Source: Dendrobates tinctorius (Eukaryota). From it: a DNA stretch of 64,000 bases. Of the stretch, positions 48,001-60,000 are shown in pieces. Positions within the stretch are counted from its first letter, which is position 1; each line of letters begins with the position of its first letter. The DNA lies in NCBI RefSeq assembly GCF_039654945.1, contig NW_027361731.1, positions 25,668,001-25,732,000 of the forward strand, given 5' to 3'. The position numbers were made by a program.

Positions 48001-51000
48001 GCAGAAGTGTGAGCGCAGCTGGGTATGTGACGAGCAGCAGAAGTGTGAGCGCAGCTGGGTATGTGACGAGCAGCAGAAGTGTGAGCGCAGCTGGGTATGT
48101 GACGAGCAGCAGAAGTGTGAGCGCAGCTGGGTATGTGACGAGCAGCAGAAGTGTGAGCGCAGCTGGGTATGTGACGAGCAGCAGAAGTGTGAGCGCAGCT
48201 GGGTATGTGACGAGCAGCAGAAGTGTGAGCGCAGCTGGGTATGTGACGAGCAGCAGAAGTGTGAGCGCAGCTGGGTATGTGACGAGCAGCAGAAGTGTGA
48301 GCGCAGCTGGGTATGTGACGAGCAGCAGAAGTGTGAGCGCAGCTGGGTATGTGACGAGCAGCAGAAGTGTGAGCGCAGCTGGGTATGTGACGAGCAGCAG
48401 AAGTGTGAGCGCAGCTCGGTATGTGACGAGCAGCAGAAGTGTGAGCGCAGCTCGGTATGTGACGAGCAGCAGAAGTGTGAGCGCAGCTCTGTATGTGACG
48501 AGCAGCAGAAGTGTGAGCGCAGCTGGGTATGTGACGAGCAGCAGAAGTGTGAGCGCAGCTGGGTATGTGACGAGCAGCAGAAGTGTGAGCGCAGCTGGGT
48601 ATGTGACGAGCAGCAGAAGTGTGAGCGCAGCTCGGTATGTGACGAGCAGCAGAAGTGTGAGCGCAGCTCGGTATGTGACGAGCAGCAGAAGTGTGAGCGC
48701 AGCTCGGTATGTGACGAGCAGCAGAAGTGTGAGCGCAGCTCGGTATGTGACGAGCAGCAGAAGTGTGAGCGCAGCTGGGTATGTGACGAGCAGCAGAATC
48801 GTGGAATGTTAGAAGGGACATCCAGGGTAATCGTGTCTCACCCCCTGCCCAATGTAGGAGTCACTAAACCCTCTCAGATGTCTGTCCAGCTTCTGAAGAC
48901 TTCCACTGAAGAACGGCCCAGACCTGAACCTAAGGGACAATCTGTGGTGACCTGAAGGGGGCGCTGTACACAGGAGATGCCCACGCAAATCAGATAGATG
49001 TGGAGCTGCTGCAAGGAGGCGGCCGCAATCATTGCCAATTCTCGATGTGCCGTGCTGATAGACACCGACCCAAAAACACTGAACACTGCCAGAAACTCAC
49101 AAGGGACTGTAACACAGCATTAGTATAAGGGTGTGGAGATTTATGCAACTGCATCATGTTAATCTACTTTTTCCACCCAAAGAGATTTCACTTCAATTTT
49201 CATTGCATTTGTACAGATTATGGGCAACACTAAAGGTGGGAAAAGTTCTGAAATCATTGTTCTTGGTGGGATTTTTTTTTAATCAGGGGTGTGTAGACTT
49301 TTCCTATCCACTGTAGGGATAGTCAGTGATGTGTGTGGCGGATCAGCGGCCATCATCCAATTGCTGTGACTCGTTACCTCTTCTCCGGACCGTGCAGAGG
49401 ATGCTGGCGATCTTAGTGGGGCGCCCGCTCCGGGGACGGGAGGAGACGGTATTGAAAGTCTTCCACTTGTAGATGATCTGCCGGACGGTGGACCGGTGCA
49501 GGTCACACACTTTGCTGATGGTCTTATAACCCTTCCCGGCCTCGTGGGCCTCCACCACCTTCCTCCGCACCTCGTCAGAGATCTCCTTGGATCGGGGCAT
49601 GGTTCCTGGCTGCAAAGCACCTGGAGGGGAGTGCTGGATGGGGGAACGACTGCACCCGGGAAATCAGAGCAACTGTCCTCACAATTCCATGACCTGTGGA
49701 GACACAACGATAAGAAAAACTAAGTACACCCTTACTGCTTCTGTAGGAATGAAGAGGGCAGGAAGCAGCGGGGTACTGCCAATCACATCCCTGATCAACT
49801 GTCCATCAGTCAGTGTGAGCACTGCTATAAAAGCAGAAGTTCTGGCAGTTTGCTGGCCTGGAGCATTCAGGCGAGTATTACCACAATGTCAATGGGGACA
49901 GACATCAGCCCTGACCTCAGAGAAGCCATTTATAGACAAGCTGGAGTCCACAGTGAGAAACATTCAATATGGCTGACAATCTTTCATCCTCCTAAAGTAG
50001 TAGTGGACGTTCCAGCAAATTCAACCTGAGATCAGCCGTGCAATGCTCAGAGAAAGTGCAATAAGCCCAAGAGCTATAGCTCAGTCTCTAAAGGCCTGTT
50101 AAATAATTATGTTATGGCTGTGATGGAAGGGTCGGAGGAGAAAGCCTCTTCTTTCGATAAATAATCTGGCTAGTTTGGAAGCTACAAGATTTCTGGATTG
50201 CTGCACTTTGGAGAGACAAGTAGGTGCGCGCGGGGCCGCAAGAGAGCGGAGCGGGAAGGTGCGCGCGGGGCCGCAAGAGAGCGGAGCGGGAAGGTGAGCG
50301 CGGGGCCGCAAGAGAGCGGAGCGGGAAGGTGAGCGCGGGGCCGCAAGAGAGCGGAGCGGGAAGGTGAGCGCGGGGCCGCAAGAGAGCGGAGCGGGAAGGT
50401 GAGCGCGGGGCCGCAAGAGAGCGGAGCGGGAAGGTGAGCGCGGGGCCGCAAGAGAGCGGAGCGGGAAGGTGAGCGCGGGGCCGCAAGAGAGCGGAGCGGG
50501 AAGGTGAGCGCGGGGCCGCAAGAGAGCGGAGCGGGAAGGTGAGCGCGGGGCCGCAAGAGAGCGGAGCGGGAAGGTGAGCGCGGGGCCGCAAGAGAGAGGA
50601 GCGGGAAGGTGAGCGCGGGGCCGCAAGAGAGCGGAGCGGGAAGGTGAGCGCGGGGCCGCAAGAGAGCGGAGCGGGAAGGTGAGCGCGGGGCCGCAAGAGA
50701 GCGGAGCGGGAAGGTGAGCGCGGGGCCGCAAGAGAGCGGAGCGGGAAGGTGAGCGCGGGGCCGCAAGAGAGCGGAGCGGGAAGGTGAGCGCGGGGCCGCA
50801 AGAGAGCGGAGCGGGAAGGTGAGCGCGGGGCCGCAAGAGAGCGGAGCGGGAAGGTGAGCGCGGGGCCGCAAGAGAGCGGAGCGGGAAGGTGAGCGCGGGG
50901 CCGCAAGAGAGCGGAGCGGGAAGGTGAGCGCGGGGCCACAAGAGAGCGGCATAGTAAGTGCACGGAAAAATATAACCAATAACAGCTGCAGTCCATCCAG

Positions 51001-57000: not shown

Positions 57001-60000
57001 TCGTGCAGCGTCTTGTCCAGGTGCTGCGCCTGGTGACTCTCCAGATCGGTTTCTGTGGTGAAGCAGGTGCCGCAGATCTCGCAGCAGAGCATTACCTCCA
57101 TGTGACGCTCTGCAGATCCCAGCTCGCGGTTACAGTTCAGCTTTTCTTTCCGCCTTATTCTTTTTGTCGTCTTCCTTGTGAGCGTGGAAACATCAGGGAG
57201 CACAAGAGTCATGGAGGCTTCGTCCTCCCCCCCTGCAGCGAGGCCGTCGCAGTCTGCACCACGGACCGTACCTGACAAAGAGAGCGAGATCATCAGGATC
57301 CTGCAGTTTCAGGCGCAACCGGAGAAGCCAGGCAAGACCCACAATTAAAGGGGCACAAAGAAAAATACATTTTAGTCAGCAAAAATCCTCAAAAGCGTTA
57401 ATGTGCTGAGAGTCTTTGCTGTGTCCCATGTCACCCGCCGTCCCCAGCCATGTAGAGATGCTGCAGGGTCGTATACTCCACTTCTGGTGAAAAGTGACGA
57501 CAATATACAGGTGACACGGGCGGGGACCCTCCAGCTGATCGCCAGGAGCGGAGTAAGCGACCATGAGCTGCAGCATCTGCACATGCCGGGCGCAGAGCAG
57601 CACACAGGGAATGTCAGCAGCAGCTTCGTCTATTGATAAATGGTCCCTTTGTGTGTGGGAACCACACTAACATTCTGCAGAAATGACTTACCTGAGACTC
57701 GCGAGTCCTCCTCGCCCTCCGCACTGACGCTCTCCTCTTCTATCTTTAGGGTCTCGTTTTCTGGACAAAAAAGGACACAAATAATGAAACAGAACAGGCG
57801 AAACTCCAGGAGGGCAGCCGAGAATTAATGCAAAACAAACACTCTCTACACCTGAACACTATCCGCTCTCCTACCTGACACCTGCGCGTTGTCCACTCTC
57901 GTACCTGACACCTAAGCGATCTCCACTCTCGTATTTGACACTTGAATGCTCTCATACATAACACCCGAGCGCTCCCTGTTCTTGTACCTGACACCCGAGC
58001 GCTCTGCTCCCGTACCTGACACCTGAACGCTCTCTGCTCTCGTACCTGACACCTGAACGCTCTCTGCTCTCGTACCTGACACCTGAACGCTCTCTGCTCT
58101 CGTACCTGACACCTGAACGCTCTCCACTCTTGTATTTGACACTTGAGTGCTCTCATACATAACACTCGAGCGCTCCCTGTTCTTGTACCTGACACCCGAG
58201 CGCTCTCTGCTCCCTTACCTGACACCTGAACGCTCTCCGCTCTCGTACCCGACACCCGCGCGCTCTCCGCTCTCGTACCCGACACCCGCGCGCTCTCCGC
58301 TCTCGTACCCGACACCCGCGCGCTCTCCGCTCTCGTACCCGACACCCGCGCGCTCTCCGCTCTCGTACCCGACACCCGCGCGCTCTCCGTTCTCGTACCT
58401 GACACCTGCGCGTTGTCCACTCTCGTACCTGACACCTAAGCGATCTCCACTCTCGTATTTGACACTTGAATGCTCTCATACATAACACCCGAGCGCTCCC
58501 TGTTCTTGTACCTGACACCCGAGCGCTCTGCTCCCGTACCTGACACCTGAACGCTCTCTGCTCTCGTACCTGACACCTGAACGCTCTCTGCTCTCGTACC
58601 TGACACCTGAACGCTCTCTGCTCTCGTACCTGACACCTGAACGCTCTCCACTCTTGTATTTGACACTTGAGTGCTCTCATACATAACACTCGAGCGCTCC
58701 CTGTTCTTGCACCTGACACCCGAGCGCTCTCTGCTCCCTTACCTGACACCTGAACGCTCTCCGCTCTCGTACCCGACACCCGCGCGCTCTCCGCTCTCGT
58801 ACCCGACACCCGCGCGCTCTCCGTTCTCGTACCTGACACCTGCGCGCTCTCCGTTCTCGTACCTGACACCTGCGCGCTCTCCTCCCCGTTGGCTCTGTCA
58901 CCTTCTGTTGTGATTTTCCGACTCTGACAACCTGTGGGTAGAAGGACAGTGATGTAAGTGGCCGATCAGCTACCGCCCCGGAGCAGCGGCCGGTCTCGTT
59001 ACCTCTCCGCAGCTGGCGCAGGACGGTGGCCATCTTGGTGGGGCGGCCGCTCCGGGGAAGTGTGGAGATAGTGTTGAAGGTCTTCCACTTGTAGATGATC
59101 TTCCTCACTGTGGAGTGGTGCAGCTCACACATCTTACTGATGGTTTTGTAGCCTTTCCCAGCCTCGTGAGCCTCCACCACCCTCCTCCGCACGTCCTCCG
59201 AGAAGTCCTTGGACCGGGGCATGGTTCCCGGCTGCACCGAAGAGAGCAGAACAGAAGGCGTCACCGGGACCTCACCGAGTCCACGGCGTGCAGCGGACAG
59301 CCACAACAACATCAAAGCTCAGCAGTCACGTGACCTGCGCAGGACGCTCTGCGCACACAACTGGGACGATCAGCAGTCACATGACCGGCGTGCACAGGCT
59401 CAGAAAAGATTCACCAATCAGCGTCGTTACGTCACCGGACGGTCAACCAATAGACGGAAACGAAAAGCGCTAGTAAGTATTGTCTCACACCCGGCAGTAG
59501 TGTCCCCAACTTGGCGGCCATCTTATTGTAGCCGGGACCACAGGCTGGGCTCCGTCTGTTGCTATGGCAGCTGAGCGTTGCCCACATTCTGCGGGGTGAT
59601 CCACAGAGCTCTGGACTGGAGCTGCCGCAGGCTGTGCACATACTGTAGATAGAACCGCAGGGTGTGCACGGAGATAGAACCGCAGGGTGTGCACATACTG
59701 TAGATAGAACCGCAGGGTGTGCACGGAGATAGAACCGCAGGGTGTGCACATACTGTAGATAGAACCGCAGGGTGTGCACGGAGATAGAACCGCAGGGTGT
59801 GCACATACTGTAGATAGAACCGCAGGGTGTGCACGGAGATAGAACCGCAGGGTGTGCACATACTGTAGATAGAACCGCAGGGTGTGCACGGAGATAGAAC
59901 CGCAGGGTGTGCACATACTGTAGATAGAACTGCAGGGTGTGCACGGAGATAGAACCGCAGGGTGTGCACATACTGTAGATAGAACCGCAGGGTGTGCACG

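What the first reader, a model, noticed from the sequence alone, without database searches (positions are those of the whole stretch)
49378..59222. HTH exons of the two paralogs show a purifying-selection signature and host-like codon usage
Manual codon comparison of residues 1-63 gives 51 identical residues, 18 of them with synonymous codon differences, against 12 mostly conservative replacements (D/E, R/K, I/V, T/S) and no indel or stop. Third positions are GC-rich. The genuine Tc1 relics a few hundred bases away are riddled with indels. This separates domestication from neutral decay.
Basis: seen in the sequence. Interest (0 to 1): 0.65.

Follow-up and report, generated by a model that had tools for sequence, protein, structure and literature searches.

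The report
Frog genes built from Tc1 transposase
Two neighbouring poison-frog genes start with a DNA-binding piece taken from a Tc1 transposon and have kept it intact under selection, an ordinary but previously undescribed case of a jumping gene turned into a host gene.

Summary
Over codons 1-63, 51 residues are identical, 18 of them through different codons. There are 12 replacements, no indel and no stop, and GC3 is 0.84.

A vs B gives dN/dS 0.14 by NG86 and 0.065 by ML (Fisher p 1.3e-7). None of 20,000 neutral simulations gave 12 or fewer replacements.

The window is from Dendrobates tinctorius. Both exons are first coding exons of annotated genes that combine a Sleeping-Beauty-type HTH, a disordered linker and two C2H2 fingers.

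The same architecture occurs in 13 neobatrachian frog species. Their 20 HTH domains form one clade among Tc1 HTHs (98/86).

Two real Tc1 relics lie 65-620 bp from exon A and carry stops and frameshifts.

New here: the HTH exons stay paralog-specific across species, while the zinc-finger exon is homogenised within each species.

Not testable here: "host-like" codon usage, and dN/dS among orthologs.

Verdict: a domesticated transposase DNA-binding domain, a new member of the known host-transposase fusion class.

The parts
49378..49600 (-). Gene A, coding exon 1: Tc1-derived PAI-type HTH (residues 1-63) plus a 10-11 residue tail; donor GTAACG, phase 1
   Evidence: Pfam HTH_SB PF25787, 71.4 bits. 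100% identical to residues 1-74 of P0004, D. tinctorius.
47868..47942 (-). Gene A, coding exon 2 (acidic linker, DENEVPES...), 75 nt, phase 1 to 1
   Evidence: tblastn of P0004 residues 75-101, 100%. AG/GT contexts.
47115..47461 (-). Gene A, last coding exon: basic stretch plus two C2H2 fingers, stop at 47117-47115
   Evidence: (zf-C2H2).
59003..59222 (-). Gene B, coding exon 1: Tc1-derived HTH. The conserved ATG is at 59222. The database model starts at an upstream, non-conserved ATG at 59312.
   Evidence: Pfam HTH_SB, 68.6 bits. P0011 residues 1-104 map at 100%. Orthologs start at MPRSK.
58863..58931 (-). Gene B, coding exon 2 (GCQSRKITTEG...), 69 nt. It is absent from gene A, which has a Tc1 terminal repeat at the equivalent place.
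   Evidence: no similarity of A's post-acceptor sequence to this exon.
57692..57760 (-). Gene B, coding exon 3 (ENETLKIEEE...), the homolog of A's exon 2
56925..57271 (-). Gene B, last coding exon: two C2H2 fingers; its CDS is identical in nucleotides to A's last exon
47018..47506 (.). Gene-conversion tract, copy A (partner 56828-57316): 489 bp at 99.2% identity. All 4 differences lie outside the CDS.
   Evidence: Concerted pattern across three species.
56828..57316 (.). Gene-conversion tract, copy B
49314..49377 (-). Intron 1 remnant of A, homologous to B's intron 1 (58932-59002)
   Evidence: 43/64 identical, 7 gap columns, z = 8.3 against 300 shuffles.
48912..49313 (+). Tc1 relic 1: decayed C-terminal transposase fragment (48912-49120) and terminal repeat (49288-49313), inside intron 1 of gene A
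   Evidence: Weak collinear tblastn matches of several Tc1 transposases (E 0.008-0.03), with an in-frame stop in each piece and a frame change between pieces. TIR-like sequence after a TA. GC 0.45, CpG o/e 0.38.
49886..50220 (+). Tc1 relic 2: decayed N-terminal transposase fragment including an HTH, 290-620 bp upstream of A's ATG, on the opposite strand
   Evidence: tblastn E 0.05-0.13. At least 5 stops and at least 2 frame changes over about 110 codons. GC 0.44, CpG o/e 0.28.
59223..59620 (-). CpG-rich 5' flank of gene B (putative promoter/5' UTR)
   Evidence: GC 0.58, CpG o/e 0.86. CRE-like, CCAAT and E-box motifs. Function is inferred only.

Best explanation
A and B are tandem paralogs of a host-transposase fusion gene found in neobatrachian frogs.

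Origin (inferred). An ancestral Tc1 copy contributed its start codon and the first ~73 codons. These encode the PAI three-helix HTH and the following RSGRPTK motif. A donor site inside the transposase reading frame spliced this piece to downstream exons. Those exons encode an acidic, disordered linker, a basic stretch and two C2H2 fingers. The second HTH and the DDE catalytic domain are gone, so the protein cannot transpose.

Selection and function. The HTH has since been kept by purifying selection (shown for A vs B). It most likely acts as a sequence-specific DNA-binding module together with the two fingers, that is, as a transcription factor or repressor. Its ancestral targets would have been Tc1 terminal-repeat-like sequences (inferred).

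After duplication:
- The B lineage fixed 9 of the 12 A/B replacements. These include R36H and Q41K in the predicted recognition helix and R55L just after it. The B form was then conserved across three genera, which suggests a changed binding specificity (inferred).
- The last exon is repeatedly homogenised between A and B by gene conversion, while the HTH exons escape it.
For: Domain identity:
- Pfam HTH_SB scores above cut-off in both copies.
- Both match the solved SB PAI subdomain 2m8e without gaps (E 3.7e-7).
- The AlphaFold model has helices 9-20, 25-32 and 36-51 at pLDDT 83-94, a disordered 73-157 and two beta-beta-alpha fingers.

Not a transposon:
- Seven full-length and three partial Tc1 transposase proteins match only residues 1-66 at E<1e-3 in the window.
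- No inverted repeats were found around exon A.

Gene structure:
- The database models P0004 and P0011 map to 3 and 4 exons with GT-AG, phase-1 introns.
- Intron 1 is homologous between A and B.

Selection:
- omega is 0.136 (NG86) and 0.065 (ML), Fisher p 1.3e-7, and 0 of 20,000 neutral simulations reached the observed count.
- Constraint is confined to residues 1-63. The tail codons 64-73 give dN 0.43, dS 0.28.
- All 20 frog HTH rows are 63 aa without gaps and 24 columns are invariant, while the linker is full of indels.

Single origin:
- 20 of 20 frog HTH-ZnF rows form one clade. Support is 85 SH-aLRT in the 188-row tree and 98/86 in the 80-row tree.

Paralog history:
- HTH identity is A-A 92-94% (among the three dendrobatid A proteins; 83-85% to the aromobatid Anomaloglossus), B-B 89-94% and A-B 71-78%.
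- C-terminal exon identity within species is 100, 98 and 95%, against 78-92% between dendrobatid species.
- The window's last-exon CDS is 347/347 identical between A and B.

Polarisation and helix positions. SB contact residues come from passages of PMC11754664.

The general mechanism is known from passages of the preprint 10.1101/2020.05.07.082677.
Against: - No transcript, binding or expression data were seen. The gene models are database predictions.
- The AU test on the 66-column HTH alignment does not formally reject grouping B with a Gastrophryne Tc1 (delta lnL 19.9, p 0.114) or A with a Hyperolius Tc1 (delta lnL 32.7, p 0.064).
- No HTH-less parent of the zinc-finger part was found, so the capture step is inferred.
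- No KRAB, SCAN or other effector domain is present, so the regulatory output is unknown.
- Only 6 of the 12 A/B replacements fall on the 24 SB-model DNA-contact positions. About 4.6 are expected by chance, so there is no real enrichment.
- dS of 0.67-1.2 looks high for a duplication inside Dendrobatoidea. In addition, the first HTH of Rhinoderma shares D6, E33, H36 and K41 with B (a clade with B is not rejected, p 0.383). The date of the duplication is therefore open.
Confidence: 0.85

Rival explanations
1. The low dN/dS is inherited from transposon life. On this view A and B are two independent fragments of different Tc1 subfamilies, which diverged under selection for transposition and now decay neutrally.
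For: - Nearest transposase-bearing HTHs are 61-73% identical to A and B.
- AU tests on 66 columns do not reach p<0.05 against placing A or B with a frog Tc1 (p 0.064 and 0.114).
- Tc1 elements make up 6.57% of this genome (passage of 10.1101/2023.11.06.565769).
Against: - A and B share the same truncation point, donor sequence and phase.
- They share a homologous intron 1 and homologous downstream exons.
- The ML trees put all 20 frog HTH-ZnF rows in one clade.
- A-type and B-type exons are each conserved at 89-94% across three genera.
- The real relics beside them are full of stops and frameshifts.
Confidence: 0.04
2. The HTH exons are annotation artefacts. On this view a Tc1 fragment near a small zinc-finger gene is wrongly joined to it by gene predictors and has no protein-level function.
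For: - All models are computational, named 'uncharacterized protein' or 'zinc finger protein ...-like'.
- Similar HTH_SB + ZnF models in fishes may be read-through artefacts, for example P0059 from Esox, which sits inside a Tc1 clade.
Against: - An unused fragment would not show omega 0.14 and no indel over 189 nt when the adjoining 64-nt intron has 7 gap columns.
- The start codon, length and donor are conserved in 13 species.
- The zinc-finger exon search found no relative lacking the HTH. 10 of 11 hits carry PF25787; the 11th is a generic bat ZnF.
Confidence: 0.05
3. It is a domesticated gene whose role is transposon control rather than host gene regulation. A DNA-binding-only transposase fragment would occupy Tc1 terminal repeats and block transposase, in the manner of a truncated-transposase repressor. 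A and B would track different Tc1 subfamilies.
For: - The protein retains exactly the subdomain that reads the transposon repeats in SB (passages of PMC11754664).
- Tc1 is the most abundant DNA transposon in this genome.
- B changed residues in the recognition helix and then froze.
- KRABINER binds its cognate mariner TIRs (passages).
Against: - No binding data exist.
- No repressor domain was found.
- The HTH is conserved over a span far longer than a single Tc1 family is usually active (inference).
- This is a sub-case of the best explanation rather than an alternative to domestication.
Confidence: 0.25

Closest known systems
Host-transposase fusion (HTF) genes of tetrapods, e.g. KRABINER in vespertilionid bats (Cosby et al., preprint 10.1101/2020.05.07.082677; passages read)
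   Same: - A transposase DNA-binding domain on its own exon is spliced to host exons.
- The source is Tc1/mariner, the most frequent superfamily in that survey (36.1%).
- The transposase part is under purifying selection.
- The family expanded further by duplication.
   Different: - Here the transposase part is N-terminal. It supplies the start codon and uses a donor inside the transposase ORF. In 8 of 9 cases traced in that paper an acceptor upstream of the ORF was used.
- Only the first (PAI) HTH is kept, not a full transposase.
- The partner is two C2H2 fingers, with no KRAB.
- That survey had few amphibians. Its Table S3 could not be read because supplements are closed.
Sleeping Beauty / Tc1 transposase PAI subdomain (PDB 2m8e, 6urs)
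   Same: - Ungapped match over residues 1-52.
- A predicted three-helix bundle.
- H19 and R36 are conserved; the SB work ties H19 to folding and R36 to DNA binding.
   Different: - No RED subdomain and no DDE domain.
- No terminal repeats around the exon.
- B carries H36, K41 and L55 at positions that are otherwise nearly invariant in the frog genes.
Pax paired domain (recalled: thought to derive from a Tc1-like transposase DNA-binding domain; Cosby passages mention Pax genes as HTFs expanded by duplication)
   Same: A PAI-type HTH of transposase origin serves as a host DNA-binding domain and was multiplied by gene duplication. There is a weak Pfam PAX hit for P0001 (E 2.9e-4, below cut-off).
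   Different: Pax keeps both the PAI and RED subdomains and is ancient in animals. This gene keeps PAI only and is confined, as far as seen, to neobatrachian frogs.
SETMAR (recalled; named in Cosby passages)
   Same: A mariner/Tc1-superfamily transposase is captured by splicing into a host gene.
   Different: SETMAR keeps the whole transposase at the C-terminus and is primate-specific.

Membership tests
Host-transposase fusion / domesticated transposase gene | Contains a domain of transposase origin | tested here: met
   Pfam HTH_SB PF25787 at 71.4 and 68.6 bits (cut-off 43). Nearest relatives outside the frog genes carry Tc1 transposase parts.
Host-transposase fusion / domesticated transposase gene | The transposase domain is joined through splicing to exons that encode non-transposase domains | tested here: inconclusive
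   Database models P0004 and P0011 map to GT-AG, phase-compatible exons that end in two C2H2 fingers. No transcript data could be examined.
Host-transposase fusion / domesticated transposase gene | Loss of mobility hallmarks (catalytic domain, terminal repeats) | tested here: met
   Tc1 transposases match only residues 1-66 at E<1e-3. None of the 19 frog proteins matches the transposase-body HMM. No inverted repeats in 48800-50150.
Host-transposase fusion / domesticated transposase gene | Purifying selection on the transposase-derived part | tested here: met
   A vs B: omega 0.136 (NG86) and 0.065 (ML), p 1.3e-7. Among orthologs only protein conservation could be shown; codon tests were not possible.
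Host-transposase fusion / domesticated transposase gene | Orthologs at the same locus in several species | not testable with these tools
   Same-architecture proteins occur in 13 species. A- and B-type proteins lie on one contig each in Phyllobates and in R. variabilis, the latter with consecutive LOC numbers. No frog genome DNA other than the window is available, so synteny was not checked.
Autonomous Tc1/mariner element | DDE catalytic domain and flanking terminal inverted repeats | tested here: not met
PAI-type (paired-like) HTH DNA-binding domain | Three-helix bundle with helix 3 as the recognition helix | tested here: met
   Predicted helices 9-20, 25-32 and 36-51, with pLDDT 83-94 over residues 11-50. 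Sequence match to solved SB PAI. DNA binding itself was not tested.
KRAB zinc-finger proteins | N-terminal KRAB (or SCAN) effector domain with a C2H2 array | tested here: not met
   Pfam finds only HTH_SB and C2H2 families in P0011, P0021, P0001 and P0009, despite source names such as 'zinc finger protein with KRAB and SCAN domains 1-like'.

The most novel reading that the evidence does not exclude
A and B are a pair of Tc1-derived DNA-binding proteins under split evolutionary regimes. Their recognition helices are kept different by selection, with B re-tuned at R36H, Q41K and R55L and then frozen, while gene conversion keeps their zinc-finger exon identical within each species. On this reading they act as genome-defence or regulatory factors that read two different classes of Tc1 terminal repeats, in frogs whose genomes are 6.6% Tc1.
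Probability: 0.2. Interest if true: 0.7.

Novelty: new member of a known kind. Interest (0 to 1): 0.5.

Why it matters
It adds a clean, old and lineage-wide case of transposase capture in amphibians, a group thinly covered when such genes were surveyed.

Its topology is uncommon. The transposon supplies the start codon and an internal donor, and only the first HTH subdomain survives.

The tandem pair is also a natural experiment. The exon that reads DNA through the HTH has stayed paralog-specific across genera, while the zinc-finger exon is homogenised within species. This makes the question of what the HTH recognises directly testable with two closely matched proteins.

Tried and rejected
- **Parent of the zinc-finger part.**
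  - The exon search returned 11 proteins. Ten are the same frog HTH-ZnF genes and one is a generic bat ZnF.
  - The profile search with the 61-column two-finger alignment A1 was swamped by poly-zinc-finger proteins (4,717 hits; none of the 120 listed hits was one of the frog HTH-ZnF proteins). It told nothing.
- **AU tests.** None reached p<0.05, so the HTH alignment alone cannot settle placements.
- **Fold search of the whole model against PDB.** It returned only C2H2-finger matches (best E 2.9e-3, none at or below 0.001) and nothing for the HTH.
- **Inverted-repeat search around exon A.** 0 pairs.
- **Rfam on 39000-64000.** 0 matches.
- **YN00 estimator.** It failed with a math error.
- **tblastn at E<1e-3.** It missed the Tc1 relics. 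They appeared only at E up to 10 with word size 2, among many chance hits. I accepted only the two places where several transposases matched collinearly.
- **Accession look-up for P0004 and P0011.** This could not be made.
- **Neutral decay.** Rejected on the evidence.
- **Assembly artefact as the cause of the identical last exons.** Rejected, because Phyllobates and Ranitomeya show the same pattern at 98% and 95%.

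
Full report
**What the window is**

The first 39.3 kb are an 86-bp satellite (466 copies). The rest is GC-rich and crowded with minisatellites. The window holds no N.

A search with the translated exon A returned a 214-aa 'uncharacterized protein' of Dendrobates tinctorius that is 100% identical over the whole query (P0004). The window is therefore poison-frog DNA, not human. NCBI taxonomy places the species in Neobatrachia, Hyloidea, Dendrobatidae.

**The observation**

- Exon A runs 49600..49378 and exon B 59222..59003, both on the minus strand. They are 223 and 220 nt long.
- Both end in AG|GTAACGAG and both leave the reading frame in phase 1.
There are 51 identical residues of 63, 18 with synonymous differences, 12 replacements, no indel and no stop. 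The 32 nucleotide differences split 6/3/23 by codon position, and GC3 is 0.84 in both.
Five are not: I/F, V/M, R/H, Q/K and R/L.

**Is it more than chance?**

- Nei-Gojobori gives dN 0.091, dS 0.674 and omega 0.136. LWL85 gives 0.140 and ML gives 0.065. YN00 failed.
- Fisher's exact test on the substitution counts gives p = 1.3e-7.
- I placed 32 substitutions at random on exon A with the observed transition share. None of 20,000 trials gave 12 or fewer replacements (mean 21.0, sd 2.3), and 61.5% created a stop.
- A local neutral yardstick exists. The short intron after the exon is still alignable between A and B (43/64 identical, 7 gap columns, z = 8.3 against shuffles).
  - Its divergence (0.33) is about that of third codon positions (23/63 = 0.37). 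First and second positions differ at 9/126.
  - At the intron's indel density, about nine gap columns would be expected in 189 nt. There are none. This expectation is my own arithmetic.
- Ten of the 32 differences lie in CpG contexts. This may inflate dS somewhat, but it cannot account for the contrast.
- Constraint stops at residue 63. The ten tail codons give dN 0.43 and dS 0.28.

**The relics**

At E<1e-3, seven full-length and three partial Tc1 transposase proteins match nothing in the window except residues 1-66 of the two exons. A permissive search plus three-frame reading shows two decayed fragments on the opposite strand.

- Relic 1 (48912-49120) matches the last ~70 residues of the transposase in two frames, each piece with a stop. 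It is followed by a Tc1-type terminal repeat at 49288-49313 that starts right after a TA.
- Relic 2 (about 49886-50220) matches the first ~180 residues, including an HTH, with at least five stops and two frame changes.
- Both have GC 0.44-0.45 and CpG o/e 0.28-0.38, against GC 0.60 and CpG o/e 0.56-0.78 for the exons.
- The protein matches are weak (E 0.008-0.13). I accept them because several transposases hit the same places collinearly.

**Codon usage**

GC3 is 0.84-0.85 in the HTH exons. It is 0.59-0.73 in the other exons of the same genes, 0.37-0.50 in the neighbouring LINE ORFs and 0.44-0.58 in the relic frames. Flanking non-coding GC is 0.52-0.61.

The third positions are thus much richer in GC than their surroundings. 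Whether this is 'host-like' cannot be said without a host codon table, which I did not have.

**What the exons belong to**

I searched the window's sequence exon by exon and did not join the window's exons. The full-length proteins I used are the database's own records.

Mapping P0004 (A) and P0011 (B) back onto the window, together with the splice contexts, gives these models:
- Gene A has three coding exons: 49600-49378, 47942-47868 and 47461-47115.
- Gene B has four: 59222-59003, 58931-58863, 57760-57692 and 57271-56925.
- All introns are GT-AG and phase 1, and the exon lengths add up to the database protein lengths.

The encoded proteins have these parts:
- The HTH (Pfam HTH_SB).
- A linker that the model leaves disordered (residues 73-157, pLDDT below 50).
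- A basic stretch.
- Two C2H2 fingers.

The HTH matches the solved PAI subdomain of Sleeping Beauty without gaps (2m8e, E 3.7e-7). It is predicted as three helices, 9-20, 25-32 and 36-51, with pLDDT 83-94. No KRAB, SCAN or other effector domain is found.

B's exon 2 has no counterpart in A. At that very place A has the terminal repeat of relic 1, so a Tc1 insertion probably removed it. This last step is inferred. The A orthologs of Phyllobates, Ranitomeya and Anomaloglossus lack the exon too.

**Relatives**

The exon-A search (68 proteins at E up to 0.001 among 87 candidates) includes 19 proteins with HTH_SB plus C2H2 fingers and no transposase body. They come from 13 frog species:
- Dendrobates, Phyllobates, two Ranitomeya and Anomaloglossus
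- Rhinoderma, Leptodactylus, Engystomops and Eleutherodactylus
- two Bufo, Hyla and Pseudophryne

The taxonomy tool places Pseudophryne in Myobatrachoidea, and Dendrobates, Anomaloglossus and Rhinoderma in Hyloidea. The families of the other species are recalled, not checked. The only microhyloid and pipid hits (Gastrophryne, Hyperolius, Xenopus) are transposase fragments.

If the gene is orthologous in Hyloidea and Myobatrachoidea, it is old. My recollection, not a tool result, is that this split is Cretaceous, on the order of 100 My.

In the 15-protein alignment the HTH has no gap, the linker is riddled with indels and the two-finger module is conserved. Over all 20 HTH rows, 24 of 63 columns are invariant.

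**Phylogeny**

From the 207 proteins then held, an HMM found 254 HTH hits. The 188 that cover the domain end to end (174 proteins) were used.
- In the quick tree the 20 frog HTH-ZnF rows are one side of a branch (SH-aLRT 85).
- In a careful tree of the 80 rows nearest to A they are again one clade (98/86, starred). The B orthologs form a clade (100/97), and the ten dendrobatoid A and B rows sit together (84/96, not starred).

The short alignment has limited power. Forcing B to join a Gastrophryne Tc1, or A to join a Hyperolius Tc1, costs 19.9 and 32.7 log-likelihood units, but the AU p-values are 0.114 and 0.064. The single origin therefore rests on the tree together with the shared donor, phase, intron and downstream exons.

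**Two regimes in one gene pair**

| Comparison | HTH exon identity | Last exon identity |
|---|---|---|
| Same paralog, different species | A-A 92-94%, B-B 89-94% | 78-92% |
| A vs B | 71-78% | 100% (D. tinctorius), 98% (Phyllobates), 95% (R. variabilis) |

The HTH exon groups by paralog and the last exon groups by species.

In the window the homologous block is 489 bp at 99.2% (47018-47506 against 56828-57316). Its four differences all lie outside the coding part. The HTH block, by contrast, is 83.4% identical over 217 bp.

Repeated gene conversion of the 3' exon, with the HTH exons escaping it, explains this best.

**Polarising the differences**

With the other frogs as outgroups, 9 of the 12 A/B replacements are derived in B (positions 6, 7, 10, 14, 31, 33, 36, 41, 55) and 3 in A (9, 52, 54). 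Eight of the nine B states are fixed in all four B orthologs.
- R36H and Q41K lie in predicted helix 3.
- V31M lies in helix 2, and D33E in the turn between helices 2 and 3.
- R55L lies just after helix 3.

Passages of PMC11754664 identify helix 3 of the SB PAI subdomain as the recognition helix. They list residues 33-36, 40, 41 and 52-55 among the DNA contacts and name R36 as contributing to binding. The numbering carries over because the alignment is ungapped.

Six of the 12 A/B differences are at such contact positions. That is not more than expected (24 of 63 positions are contacts). The suggestion of a changed specificity in B therefore rests on which residues changed, not on an enrichment.

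**Open point: the date of the duplication**

The first of the two HTHs in the Rhinoderma model shares D6, E33, H36 and K41 with B. A clade of that row with B is not rejected (p-AU 0.383). I chose that grouping after seeing the data.

Together with a dS of 0.67-1.2, this leaves two possibilities. The duplication may be older than Dendrobatoidea, with the A-B similarities in dendrobatoids partly due to conversion. Alternatively, the shared states may be convergent.

**How it most likely works**

Shown:
- A Tc1-derived PAI HTH under purifying selection.
- Annotated as fused to two C2H2 fingers.
- No catalytic domain.
- Conserved in many frogs.

Inferred:
- Capture through a donor inside the transposase ORF.
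- Action as a sequence-specific DNA-binding protein whose ancestral sites were Tc1 terminal repeats.
- A re-tuned specificity in B.

**Comparison with what is known**

The class is known. Passages of Cosby et al. (preprint 10.1101/2020.05.07.082677) report the following:
- At least 94 host-transposase fusions in tetrapods.
- Tc1/mariner as the main source.
- Purifying selection on the transposase part.
- Capture by splicing, usually through an acceptor upstream of the transposase ORF.

This gene differs in three ways. It uses the transposase's own start and an internal donor, it keeps only the PAI subdomain, and it pairs that subdomain with two fingers instead of KRAB.

Two full-text searches found no paper describing it. 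The D. tinctorius genome preprint reports Tc1 at 6.57% of the assembly and enriched over CDS. It contains none of the words domesticat-, co-opt, exapt- or zinc finger.

**What stayed unchecked**

- No frog DNA beyond the window could be reached. Ortholog dN/dS and synteny therefore remain unchecked.

**Verdict**

The finding is a new member of a known kind, with an interesting mosaic of concerted and divergent evolution between the two paralogs.

Noticed in passing
window 1-39303: One uninterrupted 86-bp satellite array, 466 copies at 92% matches, with strong and uniform GC and AT skew. It abuts the gene-bearing, minisatellite-rich part.
   Followed up: no
window 41822-45849 (-): A LINE with both reading frames open. 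ORF2 is 997 aa stop-to-stop with endonuclease and reverse transcriptase domains. ORF1 is 371 aa with a weak GDSL-esterase-like match just under Pfam's cut-off. It could be a recently active CR1/L2-type element.
   Followed up: partly
window 57848-58882 (intron 2 of gene B), overlapping exon 2 at 58863-58882: A 30-bp (10-codon) minisatellite starts inside B's exon 2 and repeats its 3' end together with the donor. There are 15 donor-like CAGGTA[AC]G sites on the gene strand. The Ranitomeya imitator isoform P0015 contains three extra 10-residue units of this kind, so units can be exonised.
   Followed up: partly
P0001 (Rhinoderma darwinii): One database model carries two HTH_SB domains in tandem before the fingers. 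The first shares D6, E33, H36 and K41 with paralog B. Either the A/B split is older than dendrobatoids or these states arose twice.
   Followed up: partly
P0021 (Pseudophryne corroboree): The myobatrachid protein continues after the conserved two-finger module with further classical C2H2 fingers (4 motifs by regex; zf-H2C2_2). This may hint at the kind of zinc-finger gene that was the partner.
   Followed up: no
P0059 (Esox lucius), P0128, P0136, P0200: Four other proteins combine HTH_SB with C2H2 arrays (P0059 is from the fish Esox; the other three are unnamed). P0059's HTH sits inside a Tc1 clade, identical to an unnamed row and far from the frog clade. These are independent captures or annotation read-through.
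   Followed up: no
window 59002-58944 (-), intron 1 of gene B: Read through in frame, B's intron 1 still aligns weakly with the next stretch of a Tc1 transposase (P0061 residues 1-92 against 59222-58944). This suggests the donor lies inside former transposase coding sequence. The similarity past residue 66 is low.
   Followed up: no
window 40249-41743, 46301-46633, 47987-48798, 50222-50949, 51836-53121, 53226-54942, 55988-56722, 59625-60655, 60927-63998: Nine further minisatellite arrays with periods of 19-152 bp, several 94-99% homogeneous, fill most of the space between and around the two genes. Array 47987-48798 lies in intron 1 of gene A.
   Followed up: no
window 49411-49378 and 59033-59003 (-): The last ten codons of exon 1, after RPTK, evolve without visible constraint (dN 0.43, dS 0.28) and differ by a one-codon indel. 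The selected unit ends at residue 63.
   Followed up: yes
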